From positions 300,001 through 332,000 of the forward strand of contig JASBSB010000007.1 of NCBI GenBank assembly GCA_030149205.1: a stretch of DNA of 32,000 nt, read 5' to 3'. This stretch comes from Candidatus Heimdallarchaeota archaeon. Lineage in GTDB: Archaea; Asgardarchaeota; Heimdallarchaeia; Heimdallarchaeales; Kariarchaeaceae. The notes under the pieces are model-generated. The model searched no databases. It saw only the letters and a list, made by a program, of their open reading frames with translations, and was not told where the DNA came from. Shown in pieces: positions 8,505 through 12,873 of the stretch; the first letter of the stretch is position 1, and every line of letters starts with the position of its first letter. A program made the translations under genes and the position numbers.

Positions 8505-9377
8505 ATGGTAAGTTCAGATCTTCAGGCAGTGATATTTGTTGCTCTGCTCTTCTCTGTAACAATTCTAAACCTGATCATACTGCGTCTGGTTTGGACCAAG
8601 ATTTGGAAAGAGCCAGCAGTACTAAGAGCCTCAGTTCTCCTGTTTCTGCTCTTTGGTGCAGAGGCAGCAATCAGCGCCTCAGTGTTTCTCACACCACCAC
8701 AAAAGGATTTCACCAGACCAACAACCTACACATACGAACCTCTAAACTCAGCTAACCCAACAACTAACCTAACAAGAGCTGACCAACTCCATAAAATGCT
8801 TACACAGTCAGGAATCCATGACCCACTTGGACTTATGTTCGCCGATTACCCCTCAAATCACACAAAAGAAAGAAATATTCAGGTGGATCCAGCAAAACCG
8901 TACTACCGACTAAAAAATAAAAATCTCAATATTCCAACCCTCATACAGGTGCCTATCAATTGGTTGCAAAATTTCACTCTCCTTAAGGTCAAAGCAGAGA
9001 CATTCTTACAGATACCCCCAGAAAATGCATCGAGAATAAAACTCTATGTCTATCAGAACGGAAGCGTCTTTGACAGCAGGGTAAACCTAAAGATTAGGGT
9101 TACCGATGTGAAGACAAATGATATTGCTCTGGTTCTCCTCTCTTACAACCTGAAAACCGGATTTGCTGACATGGTAAACTTAATCTATGCAGGCAACGTA
9201 TACAACCCAAACAAAACAGACAAGCTCTATGCTGGGTCTGTATACACCCTATCCACAGAGAGTTTCATTAGAGGTCTTTCTTTTTTGTTTACTTTTCTGT
9301 TTGGGGGTGTGGCTGTCTTCTCCCTGATGATTTTCCCATTAGCCCATAGATTCACCCCTGCAACAAAAGAGACCTAG
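8505..9377 (+). CDS. Uncharacterised 3-TM membrane protein, tandem paralog 1 of 4
   Basis: Two N-terminal TMs, about 190 aa soluble domain with RADQLHKMLTQSGIHDPLG and PTLIQVP..WLQNFTLL..FLQIPPENASR, C-terminal TM. Confidence 0.85.
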   Translation: MVSSDLQAVIFVALLFSVTILNLIILRLVWTKIWKEPAVLRASVLLFLLFGAEAAISASVFLTPPQKDFTRPTTYTYEPLNSANPTTNLTRADQLHKMLTQSGIHDPLGLMFADYPSNHTKERNIQVDPAKPYYRLKNKNLNIPTLIQVPINWLQNFTLLKVKAETFLQIPPENASRIKLYVYQNGSVFDSRVNLKIRVTDVKTNDIALVLLSYNLKTGFADMVNLIYAGNVYNPNKTDKLYAGSVYTLSTESFIRGLSFLFTFLFGGVAVFSLMIFPLAHRFTPATKET

Positions 9378-9619
9378 TGAGCTATTCACAGCCAAGCTCA
9401 GGATTCAACTGTCACCACCACCTAAAAACAGTTCACCCCTCATGCATTACCACCCAAGTCCCTTTCTTGGTTCAATTACCCGCATTTCTCTCCAACTGCT
9501 CATCACTATACTCATTCGGACGGTGTATTTTATCCCCTTTTCACAATTCCCTCAATTTCGGTAACTCCCATTTATCCCCGCGCATATTTTTTTCTTACAT
9601 TGATTCACTGATAATTCTA

Positions 9620-9644
9620 GCATCAAAAGCTTTTTTTCTTACCA
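9620..9644 (+). promoter_or_regulatory. Putative promoter of paralog 2
   Basis: GCATCAAAAGCTTTTTTTCTTACCA starts 40 bp before ATG 9660; paralogs 1 and 2 both begin CATGGTAAGT. Confidence 0.55.
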
Positions 9645-9659
9645 CAACAATCATCCCTC

Positions 9660-10526
9660 ATGGTAAGTATTTGGGAACAATCTGTTATTGTTGCGGTGAT
9701 CTATCTTTCTGTGGTACTCGCGACCTTGCTCACTGCACGGTTATTCTACAACAAGCTGTGGAATAAAAACTCAGCAACAAAAGCTGCAGGTCTGGTCGTT
9801 GCACTTCTGCTGGTGGCAACTGCTGTGTCAGGCTACTTTCTAATCAATACTTCCCCACCAAATTATACCAATCCATTCACGTATTCATACATACCACTCC
9901 ATGTAAACAACCTCAAACGTGCAGATCAATTGCATCTCATGCTGACACAGTCTGGGATGCGGGATCCACTGGGATACATATTCTCAGATTTCCCAAGTAA
10001 TTACTCAGCTGATAGAACAATTCAGGTGACACCAGATTCCCCCTACTATAGGTTAAAATACAAGAATCTAAGCGTTCCGAGCCTGATACAGGTGCCCCTG
10101 GGCTGGTTGCAAAACTTTACACTCCTCAAGGTCAAAACAGAGCAGTTCCTGCAGGTGCCCCCTGAAAATGCATCAAGAGTTAAGGTATATGTGTACACCA
10201 ATATGACAATCTTCAGAAACAGTGTCAACATGCAGATACGCGTGAGTGACAGCAACAGCAGTGATGTAACCTACCTTTTCTTTGCTTATAGCACACAAGA
10301 TGGGTTTGCTGAAACTAACATCGTCTATTCAACAAACTATTACTCCCAATACAATGCCTCAAAAATCTATGCTGAGGCTGCCTACGTTGTCTCCCCCCAA
10401 AACACCATAGAAACCAGCTCATTGATCCTAACTTTTGCATTTGGTGTAACTACCTTTTTAGCCCTTCTAATGCTTCTAACTATATACAAAAACCCAGAGG
10501 GAGTGAAAAATGAAATGGAATGGTGA
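9660..10526 (+). CDS. Uncharacterised 3-TM membrane protein, tandem paralog 2 of 4
   Basis: RADQLHLMLTQSGMRDPLG, PSLIQVP..WLQNFTLL..FLQVPPENASR; same topology as paralog 1. Confidence 0.85.
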   Translation: MVSIWEQSVIVAVIYLSVVLATLLTARLFYNKLWNKNSATKAAGLVVALLLVATAVSGYFLINTSPPNYTNPFTYSYIPLHVNNLKRADQLHLMLTQSGMRDPLGYIFSDFPSNYSADRTIQVTPDSPYYRLKYKNLSVPSLIQVPLGWLQNFTLLKVKTEQFLQVPPENASRVKVYVYTNMTIFRNSVNMQIRVSDSNSSDVTYLFFAYSTQDGFAETNIVYSTNYYSQYNASKIYAEAAYVVSPQNTIETSSLILTFAFGVTTFLALLMLLTIYKNPEGVKNEMEW

Positions 10527-10787
10527 CGGGTCTCCCAATCTTTTTTATCTTTCATCTTAATTGAATTCCCAAAATTCCTAAAAATTTCCACTTCACAAAA
10601 TTTCCAATTTTTCAATTTTTTAATTCTCCAAAATTTTTCAATTTTTCGAATCTTCTGAAACTCCTAATTCACACCAATCTCCCCAGCTATCAGTTGTATG
10701 CACAGCTCCAATAACCCACCCACCCCATTCTTCCCTCCAAAAAAAGTGTGTCAAAATCACCCGTGAAATCGTCACTAAAAAGCTCCA

Positions 10788-10809
10788 CCAACAGAAGGTT
10801 TATTTTACC
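10788..10809 (+). promoter_or_regulatory. BRE/TATA promoter of paralog 3
   Basis: CCAACAGAAGG-TTTATTTT-ACC, TATA about 25 bp before ATG 10828; nearly identical to 11903-11925. Confidence 0.65.
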
Positions 10810-11709: not shown

Positions 11710-11820
11710 GTCTGTGTTGTTCAGAGTATTTAGCACCAGGCCCCTGTCTAATCTCCTCATCTCTACAGGGATATCATGTAACAGCTCCACATCATTTCAC
11801 TTCTAAAGCATATATATATC

Positions 11821-11875
11821 AAAATCACCACTGAAATCACTTTGGAATCTCCACTGAAATCACCAGTGAAATCAC
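11821..11875 (+). repeat. Five (T)GAAATCAC-like direct repeats at 11-12 bp spacing
   Basis: AAAATCAC 11821, TGAAATCAC 11832, TGGAATCTC 11843, TGAAATCAC 11855, TGAAATCAC 11867. Confidence 0.8.
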
Positions 11876-11902
11876 AAGTGTACTCACCAATAACAAACTC
11901 CT

Positions 11903-11925
11903 CCAACAGAAGGTTTATTTTTACC
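11903..11925 (+). promoter_or_regulatory. BRE/TATA promoter of paralog 4
   Basis: CCAACAGAAGG-TTTATTTTT-ACC upstream of ATG 11944; paralogs 3 and 4 both start GGTATG. Confidence 0.65.
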
Positions 11926-11943
11926 GAACACCTCTGCTAAGGT

Positions 11944-12873
11944 ATGGTAGATCAGTATCTGTCCATCCTTTTAGGGATGGGGCTCTTCTTACTCATTGAC
12001 TTCGTCATCCTGTTCCTCGTCAGACAACTGAGCACAAAGGTTTGGAAAACCTCCAGAAGAGCAAAGGCTGCTGCTATGATATTTCTGCTATTTGGGGGAA
12101 TGACGGCTCTCTCAGCCAATACCTTTCTCTTTCCACCAGCAAAGGATTACTCCAAACCATTCGCATACAGCTACACATCACTGGGACTGGTAGACAACGG
12201 ACTGAACCTCACACGGGCAACAGAGCTGCATCAGATGCTCATTCAGTCTGGGATACGTGACCCACTCGGATTCCTCTTCCAAGACTTCCCAAGACTTAAC
12301 ACCCCCGAACGAACCATACGGATTCTCCCTGCAAACCCATACTACCTCGTGGAGTACAAAAAACAGGGGAGTTCTACTCAGGTTCCTACTCAGGGTTCCG
12401 TTCAGGTTCCTACTCTTATTCAGGTGCCAAAGTCCTGGCTGAATAATCTTACACTGGTCAAGCAAAAAGTCAGAGAATTCCTGCAGATACCTCCAGCCAA
12501 CGCCTCCCGCCTCAGCCTGTATGCAAACTACTCATCAACTGGAAACGAACCCTTTGTTAACCTTGAGATCTTGCTCAGGGATGTACACACGGATGGGGCT
12601 GTCATCATCTTCTTTGGATACCTGCTCAAAACTGGATTCTCCTACATAGTCAATGTTGAATACACCACCATCCACTATGACATCAACAAAGCCTCTATGA
12701 TCTATCAGGAAGTGGCATACCAGGACTCTGTTGCTGCAAACATCTCTATTAACTCATTGATAATGTCTTTCCTCTTTGGGGCCCTCACCCTCATTCTCCC
12801 CCCACTCTTTCTCACCGCACCTAAGAACTCGCAGATACAAAAGGTCTTCTTTCCAGAAGATGTTGAGGGCTAG
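11944..12873 (+). CDS. Uncharacterised 3-TM membrane protein, tandem paralog 4 of 4
   Basis: RATELHQMLIQSGIRDPLG, QVPTLIQVP..WLNNLTLV..FLQIPPANASR; carries a QVPT-repeat insertion. Confidence 0.85.
   Translation: MVDQYLSILLGMGLFLLIDFVILFLVRQLSTKVWKTSRRAKAAAMIFLLFGGMTALSANTFLFPPAKDYSKPFAYSYTSLGLVDNGLNLTRATELHQMLIQSGIRDPLGFLFQDFPRLNTPERTIRILPANPYYLVEYKKQGSSTQVPTQGSVQVPTLIQVPKSWLNNLTLVKQKVREFLQIPPANASRLSLYANYSSTGNEPFVNLEILLRDVHTDGAVIIFFGYLLKTGFSYIVNVEYTTIHYDINKASMIYQEVAYQDSVAANISINSLIMSFLFGALTLILPPLFLTAPKNSQIQKVFFPEDVEG

What the first reader, a model, noticed from the sequence alone, without database searches (positions are those of the whole stretch)
8505..12873. Tandem array of four paralogous, unrecognised 3-TM membrane glycoproteins
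Seen: four ~290-310 aa genes share blocks R[AS]x[QE]LxxMLxQSG[IM]xDPLG, PYY, P[TS]LIQVPxxW[LI]xN[FL]TL[LV]KxK, FLQ[IV]PPxN[AT]SR and GF[AS], while the C-terminal half of the soluble domain is much more variable. Each has TM-basic loop-TM, a ~190 aa domain with 5-8 N-x-S/T sequons (two conserved in all four), then a TM and short tail. Inference: the positive-inside rule puts the domain outside. This looks like a lineage-specific family of receptor/adhesin or oligomeric membrane subunits, with a conserved scaffold and a diversified ligand face, next to a beta-helix surface protein. I recognise no known family.
Basis: partly seen in the sequence, partly recalled or inferred. Interest (0 to 1): 0.78.

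Follow-up and report, generated by a model that had tools for sequence, protein, structure and literature searches.

The report
Orphan Heimdallarchaeal three-helix surface protein array
Four neighbouring genes in a Heimdall-group Asgard archaeon encode fast-evolving membrane proteins of a tiny family that no database recognises; each has a well-folded outer domain only faintly like bacterial lipid-carrier proteins, and their function is still a guess.

Summary
All share TM1, a basic loop, TM2, a ~185-aa domain, TM3 and a short basic tail. N-glycosylation sequons are about twice the shuffled expectation and lie almost entirely in the domain. Each gene has its own BRE/TATA-like element about 26 nt before the ATG.

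The family is real but very small. An exhaustive profile search of 1.84 billion representatives gave 15 hits. It was found in 3 of 400 Asgard genomes, all Heimdall-class, including a Hodarchaeota MAG. It is single-copy everywhere else, and the four copies form one clade, so this is a local tandem expansion.

My best guess (0.35) is a membrane-apposed binding module for a hydrophobic or membrane-linked ligand. The close rival is a rapidly diversifying surface protein. Receptor, adhesin and oligomer roles remain untested. The scan holds no look-alike on other DNA; another note on this same stretch describes the promoters.

The parts
8464..8483 (+). BRE/TATA-like promoter element of copy A (purine-rich GCATCAAAACG followed by a T7 run). 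The T run lies 24-30 nt before the ATG, which implies a leaderless or near-leaderless mRNA.
   Evidence: The spacing argument rests on established archaeal promoter architecture (TATA about 26 nt upstream of the transcription start).
8505..9377 (+). Copy A, 290 aa. TM1 is aa 8-26 (nt 8526-8582). The basic loop is aa 27-43. TM2 is aa 44-62 (nt 8634-8690). The outer domain is aa 66-252 (nt 8700-9260). TM3 is aa 258-276 (nt 9276-9332). The tail is 14 aa.
9620..9639 (+). Promoter element of copy B, of the same class as that of A (GCATCAAAAGC + T7).
9660..10526 (+). Copy B, 288 aa, same architecture, 9 sequons.
10788..10806 (+). Promoter element of copy C (CCAACAGAAGG + TTTATTTT). It lies inside a 53-nt block that is 81% identical to the block upstream of D.
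10828..11709 (+). Copy C, 293 aa, same architecture. The public gene call (P0004, 237 aa) starts too late and loses TM1 and most of TM2.
11903..11922 (+). Promoter element of copy D, of the same class as that of C.
11944..12873 (+). Copy D, 309 aa, same architecture with a 12-aa insertion in a loop of the outer domain.
12371..12415 (+). D-specific insertion made by a 24-nt tandem duplication (21-nt units, 86% identical). A related strain in another metagenome carries a further in-frame 12-nt insertion at 12373, so this loop varies in length.
7137..8399 (+). Context only: an exported beta-helix (NosD-like) protein with a C-terminal anchor and 19 sequons. It is not a conserved neighbour of the family.
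   Evidence: and the other family loci

Best explanation
The four genes are an in-situ tandem expansion of a rare, fast-evolving protein family restricted to Heimdall-class Asgard archaea.

Each protein is held in the cytoplasmic membrane by a three-helix bundle: an N-terminal hairpin plus a C-terminal helix. It displays a compact, probably N-glycosylated ~185-aa alpha/beta domain directly on the outer membrane face. The first strand starts about 10 residues after TM2, and the last strand runs straight into TM3.

The domain is a curved nine-stranded antiparallel sheet packed against two helices. My inference is that it works as a membrane-apposed binding module for a hydrophobic or membrane-linked ligand, such as a lipid, a lipid-linked glycan or a lipid-anchored protein. 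That is how LolA, RseB and LppX-type half-barrels work. The four individually transcribed copies would then be condition-specific or ligand-specific isoforms.

Shown: the genes are real and under constraint, and the architecture, family size and range, local expansion, separate promoter elements and lack of any sequence family are established. The topology rests on the positive-inside pattern, sequon placement and the model.

Inferred: glycosylation, the leaderless transcripts, and the whole ligand-binding mechanism.
For: Genes real and constrained:
- pN is 0.36-0.42 against pS 0.71-0.79 for all pairs.
- In-frame indel polymorphism occurs in a related strain.

Topology and location:
- The charge pattern is the same in all 12 members.
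- Sequons are about 2x the shuffled expectation and lie almost only in the domain. The N174 sequon is kept in 8 of 12 members.

Structure:
- Models are confident: full length pLDDT 84, domain alone pLDDT 90.3 and pTM 0.87.
- The domain abuts the membrane, with the last strand at 241-249 and the TM3 helix starting at 250.

Family-wide conservation:
- Invariant or near-invariant polar residues (D106-P107, R123, D201, E244, H96) and seven conserved tyrosines argue for a retained specific function rather than a mere spacer.

Expansion and regulation:
- The four copies form one clade with 99/99 support, sister to single-copy relatives.
- There are separate promoter elements in two classes.
Against: - The LolA HMM finds nothing in this genome or in 151 Asgard genomes sampled, and no Pfam model gives a consistent weak hit.
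- I could not inspect the model for a cavity.
- No conserved neighbour points to a lipid or envelope pathway.
- No expression data exist.
- Fast evolution and patchy distribution fit a surface-variation role at least as well.
Confidence: 0.35

Rival explanations
1. These are rapidly diversifying surface proteins whose main role is at the cell's exposed face. They could be a coat component, a virus receptor or decoy, or a superinfection-exclusion factor. Copy number and exposed residues would be driven by an arms race rather than by a conserved ligand.
For: - The orthologous pair P0005/P0006 is only 38.5% identical, while a DinB-like gene a few kb away in both loci is 62.6% identical.
- Copies A-D are 25-30% identical to the congener's single copy, whereas flotillin is 63-65% identical across the genus.
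- The family is patchy, found in 3 of 400 Asgard genomes and 2 of 4 in the genus.
- The array lies in an accessory stretch. The cytochrome b and beta-helix neighbours have no counterpart in three congeners. Nearby are R-M, Mrr, AAA+VWA and NACHT genes.
- One relative sits beside BrxC/BrxD and MazE genes.
- A surface loop varies in length between strains.
- Variable positions fall on the exposed sheet face.
Against: - No hit in PADLOC, PHROGs, viral contigs or BFVD.
- Half of the domain is well conserved (53-66%), with family-wide invariant polar residues, so the core function is retained.
- pN/pS gives no sign of positive selection, although synonymous sites are saturated.
- Defence-like neighbours are seen in only two of about eight contexts.
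Confidence: 0.3
2. The proteins are accessory subunits. The three-helix bundle docks onto a polytopic membrane protein such as a transporter or enzyme, and the outer domain caps or regulates it.
For: - In two distant relatives (P0007 and P0009) the gene is directly followed, on the same strand, by homologous ~475-530-aa polytopic membrane proteins (E 7e-25).
- A juxtamembrane tail motif (P-K-N/I-S-x-I) is shared by C, D and P0006.
- The cytoplasmic parts are too short to signal on their own.
Against: - That partner is not found in the window's genome, which is 93.5% complete, nor beside the other family members.
- It matches no Pfam family.
- The TM segments are the least conserved parts of the four copies, at 14-37%.
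Confidence: 0.15
3. The four paralogs assemble into one obligate hetero-oligomeric complex.
For: The genes are tandem and co-oriented, and the N-terminal half of the domain is conserved and could be an interface.
Against: - The family is single-copy in every other genome and contig found.
- Each copy has its own promoter element, in two classes, with 230-300-nt spacers, so they are not one operon.
- The duplications are old and the order among the four is unresolved.
Confidence: 0.07

Closest known systems
LolA / LolB / RseB(MucB) N-domain / LppX-LprG superfamily (open beta-barrel lipid and lipoprotein binders)
   Different: - There is no sequence relationship. The LolA HMM is silent on this genome, and there are no weak Pfam hits.
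- Scores are below the usual noise ceiling of the tool.
- The domain is inserted between a TM hairpin and a third TM helix, rather than being soluble or lipid-anchored.
- It has nine strands and two main helices in the model, against eleven strands and three helices in LolA (from knowledge).
- It is archaeal and was found only in Heimdall-class genomes.
DUF6263 (PF19777) and unnamed Acidobacteriota clusters in the ESM Atlas
   Same: These are the best shape matches in the Atlas (TM 0.48, 136 aligned residues, 4.6 A).
   Different: They are bacterial and of unknown function. TM is under 0.5, and hmmscan against Pfam gives no hit for any family member.
Ordinary archaeal anchored surface glycoproteins (for example the beta-helix protein at 7137-8399 and the 168-aa protein at 15064-15570)
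   Same: They are predicted to be exported, sequon-rich, and anchored by a C-terminal TM helix with a basic tail. The four copies studied here also lack cysteine.
   Different: Those proteins have a cleavable N-terminal signal and one anchor. This family keeps an N-terminal TM hairpin, so the domain is a loop between TM2 and TM3, and its fold is neither a beta-helix nor a simple sandwich.

Membership tests
LolA family (Pfam PF03548) / LolA-like superfamily | Significant match to the family HMM | tested here: not met
   A six-frame search of the own genome with PF03548 gave no match at E <= 0.01, while the same search found the family in 5 control genomes. hmmscan of all 12 outer domains at E <= 10 gave no LolA-clan family.
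LolA family (Pfam PF03548) / LolA-like superfamily | Open (unclosed) antiparallel beta-barrel with helices plugging the concave face | tested here: inconclusive
LolA family (Pfam PF03548) / LolA-like superfamily | Hydrophobic ligand cavity | not testable with these tools
Only alternating hydrophobic positions in the strands were seen.
Archaeal type IV pilin-like proteins (class III signal peptide) | N-terminal [KR]-[GAS] cleavage motif directly before the single hydrophobic helix | tested here: not met
Archaeosortase substrates (PGF-CTERM / PEF-CTERM) | PGF/PEF tripeptide at the start of the C-terminal helix | tested here: not met
   No PGF or PEF is present before TM3 in any of the four copies (alignment), and there is no NCBIfam hit.
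Known anti-phage defence proteins (PADLOC-DB) and phage protein families (PHROGs) | HMM match | tested here: not met
   There were no hits at E <= 0.01, and no relatives on IMG/VR contigs.

The most novel reading that the evidence does not exclude
The outer domain is a genuinely new fold that defines a membrane-apposed binding module specific to Heimdallarchaeia, including Hodarchaeales. It could be a new kind of archaeal lipid or lipid-linked-cargo handler at the outer leaflet. Alternatively it could be the first recognisable fast-evolving virus-interaction surface family of Asgard archaea, locally amplified to four independently regulated isoforms.
Probability: 0.15. Interest if true: 0.6.

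Novelty: new variant of a known kind. Interest (0 to 1): 0.36.

Why it matters
Heimdall-class Asgard archaea are the closest known archaeal relatives of eukaryotes, and very little is known about their cell surface and membrane biology. This family is a well-defined and confidently modelled target: about 300 aa, no cysteines, and a domain that should be easy to express. It is confined to that lineage and invisible to all family databases. If the domain binds lipids or lipid-anchored cargo, it would be a new archaeal envelope function. If it is an arms-race surface protein, it would give a handle on Asgard-virus interactions. As it stands it is an orphan family with a plausible but unproven mechanism, so the interest is moderate, not high.

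Tried and rejected
- **Homodimer prediction.** Copy A x 2 with the 12-row alignment scored 0.00, which the tool reports as no answer. It counts neither for nor against oligomers.
- **RNA evidence.** No RNA holder was listed among public runs. The DNA runs only confirm the assembly and show related strains.
- **Protein-language search of the Atlas.** Scores were at most 0.80, and there was no usable hit among named clusters.
- **BFVD viral structures.** Nothing passed E 1e-3.
- **Degenerate-pattern scans.** Genome, metagenome and viral contigs gave no extra close relatives. The first attempt failed because the wide alignment has no stretch conserved enough.
- **Word-index searches.** These returned only the window's own proteins and one relative already found by the exhaustive search.
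- **Synteny idea (SDR - family gene - DinB shared with relative P0005).** Rejected. The SDRs are only 23% identical and the window's DinB does not match. Only P0005 and P0006 share a DinB-like neighbour.
- **TM2 as a cleavable signal (A-x-S motif) or class III signal.** The motif is not conserved across the family.
- **Seipin-like or other 'TM - lumenal domain - TM' eukaryotic proteins.** I considered these from memory. None appeared in any fold search, so no claim is made.
- **ORF 9377-9766 and antisense ORFs over the array.** These are treated as spurious. They have no homologs and overlap the conserved frames.
- **Building an Asgard LolA alignment for hhalign.** This was impossible, because no PF03548 member was found in 151 Asgard genomes sampled.
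Full report
**1. The observation**

A profile of the four finds only these four places in the 3.3-Mb, 93.5%-complete genome, at E 1e-139 to 1e-144.

Hydropathy gives two N-terminal hydrophobic segments, one C-terminal segment and no cysteine. Sequon counts are 6, 9, 6 and 5. Two sequons, at N156 and N174 of A, are kept in all four.

**2. Are the genes real, and how are they organised?**

For all six pairs, non-synonymous differences (pN 0.36-0.42) are about half the synonymous ones (pS 0.71-0.79, saturated). 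The copies are therefore old and under purifying selection.

Contigs from two other metagenomes carry 90-98% identical fragments of A, D and the upstream gene. They include an in-frame 12-nt insertion in D, and one contig of the probable source run spans the whole array.

Each gene is preceded by a purine-rich element plus a T-rich box lying 22-30 nt before the ATG. By established archaeal promoter geometry this implies separately transcribed, leaderless or nearly leaderless mRNAs. A and B share one version of the element. C and D share another, which sits inside a 53-nt block of 81% identity. Spacers of 234-301 nt separate the genes, so the array is not a tight operon.

**3. Topology**

In all 12 family members the pattern is the same:
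- The N-tail is 0-29 aa with at most one K/R.
- The TM1-TM2 loop is 11-19 aa with 2-6 K/R and at most one acidic residue.
- The flanks of the large domain are neutral or acidic.
- The tail after TM3 has 2-5 K/R.

The positive-inside rule therefore puts the domain outside.

Independently, sequons in A-D are about twice the shuffled expectation (p 0.005-0.05 each) and lie almost only in the domain. One in B sits at the end of TM2 and one in D at the start of TM3. Other predicted exported proteins of the window show the same enrichment: the beta-helix protein, the 168-aa protein and the 283-aa protein. Predicted cytoplasmic proteins have 0-0.9 sequons per 100 aa. The N174 sequon is present in 8 of 12 family members. 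Glycosylation itself is inferred, not shown.

**4. Family size and range**

An exhaustive HMMER search of 1.84 billion cluster representatives returned 15 hits, 12 of them at E <= 1e-10, and no fused or multidomain form.

Among 400 Asgard genomes the family was found in three:
- this genome, with four copies;
- one congener, with one copy, on a contig titled Candidatus Heimdallarchaeota archaeon;
- one genome of another family in the same class.

A further member carries an NCBI name from a Candidatus Hodarchaeota MAG. Two other congeners, 82-89% complete, showed no copy.

In a maximum-likelihood tree A-D form one clade with 99/99 support. It is sister to the single-copy P0005 and P0006, and the order within the four is unresolved. 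So the array is a local tandem expansion of an ancestrally single gene.

**5. Rate and context**

P0005 and P0006 share a DinB-like neighbour that is 62.6% identical, but they are themselves only 38.5% identical. A-D are 25-30% identical to the congener's copy, while flotillin from the same window is 63-65% identical in congeners. The family evolves fast.

The cytochrome b and beta-helix genes upstream of the array have no counterpart in the three congeners at the thresholds used. The window also holds R-M, Mrr, AAA+VWA, SNF2 and NACHT genes. The array therefore lies in accessory DNA.

No neighbour is conserved across family loci, with one exception. P0007 and P0009 are each followed by homologous ~475-530-aa polytopic membrane proteins (E 7e-25). 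These match no Pfam family and were not found in this genome.

**6. Structure**

With the 12-sequence alignment, AF2 gives pLDDT 84.4 for full-length A. The model has helices at 4-31, 38-62 and 250-282, with an alpha/beta domain between them. The domain alone (aa 66-252) gives pLDDT 90.3 and pTM 0.87. It has nine strands and two main helices, and the last strand (241-249) runs directly into TM3.

The well-conserved N-terminal part (53-66% identity) holds the two helices, the D-P-L-G loop and the small strands. The variable C-terminal part (27-36%) is the five-stranded sheet, where conserved hydrophobic positions alternate with variable ones. The variable positions are therefore its exposed face.

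Family-wide invariant or near-invariant residues include D106, P107, R123, Y134, G219 and Y228, plus H96, D201, E244 and several more tyrosines.

**7. Comparison with known families**

By sequence there is nothing: Pfam, NCBIfam, PHROGs, PADLOC, PDB sequences, and the LolA HMM on this genome and on 151 Asgard genomes.

By structure the signal is weak:
- Foldseek against PDB has no hit at E <= 1e-3. Its best rows include LolA-family, LolB and MucB chains, with LppX and LprG lower, and fatty-acid or retinoid-binding barrels, at TM about 0.3.
- The Atlas gives DUF6263 (TM 0.48), MucB/RseB-N (0.45) and LolA (0.42).

LolA-like half-barrels thus recur, but the scores are below what the tool reports as typical for models with no real neighbour. 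I treat this as a lead on how the domain might work, not as membership.

**8. Mechanism**

What is established is a membrane-anchored outer domain that sits directly on the membrane, has a conserved core, and has a rapidly changing exposed face.

- **Best guess (0.35).** It is a membrane-apposed binding module for a hydrophobic or membrane-linked ligand, in the manner of LolA, RseB and LppX-type proteins. The four separately promoted copies would be isoforms.
- **Nearly as likely (0.30).** The family is primarily a diversifying surface protein (coat, or virus receptor or decoy). This fits its rate, patchiness, accessory location and loop-length polymorphism.
- **Accessory subunit of a polytopic membrane protein (0.15).** The only support is the conserved downstream neighbour in two relatives.
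- **Obligate four-subunit complex (0.07).** This is disfavoured by the single-copy state elsewhere and by the separate promoters.

A homodimer prediction gave no verdict (listed only under things tried).

**9. Verdict**

The functional suggestions are untested, and the beta-helix association is incidental. This is an orphan family restricted to Heimdall-class archaea, with a confident model and at best a remote architectural likeness to lipid-carrier half-barrels. It is a new variant within the broad class of archaeal anchored surface proteins, of moderate interest.

Noticed in passing
window 10751-10770, 11819-11838, 11854-11873 (and on to about 11885): A short element (consensus about TGAAATCAC, partly palindromic as ATCACnnGTGAA) occurs once upstream of copy C's promoter and three to four times, about 11 nt apart, upstream of copy D's. 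It is absent upstream of A and B. It may be a binding site for a transcription regulator.
   Followed up: partly
L007:1159-2583 and L011:6932-8530: Two distant family members are each followed, on the same strand, by homologous ~475-530-aa polytopic membrane proteins (21% identity, E 7e-25). These have no Pfam match and were not found in the window's genome. They may be a lineage-specific partner.
   Followed up: partly
window 4230-8399: Cytochrome b (4230-5306) and the beta-helix protein (7137-8399) were not found in three genomes of the same genus at the thresholds used. Flotillin (97-1518) is 63-65% identical in two of the three; the third gave only a weak match with internal stops. The region from about 4 kb onward looks like accessory DNA.
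   Followed up: partly
window 10597-10654: The B-C spacer holds an AT-rich run of degenerate CAATTTTT-type repeats (three overlapping 24-nt copies). It also pairs as an inverted repeat with 8348-8366 and 12876-12893, which flank the array.
   Followed up: no
window 27001-28000: GC content drops sharply to 0.196, against about 0.38 for the window, between the VWA/CoxE gene and the 512-aa membrane protein gene.
   Followed up: no
control genomes: The LolA Pfam model passes its cut-off in Methanocaldococcus jannaschii and Methanosarcina acetivorans but in none of 151 Asgard genomes sampled. LolA-family proteins therefore exist in some archaea but were not found in this phylum.
   Followed up: partly
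window 10828-11709: The public gene call for copy C (P0004, 237 aa) starts at an internal Met and omits TM1 and most of TM2. The promoter position and the family alignment support the 293-aa form.
   Followed up: yes
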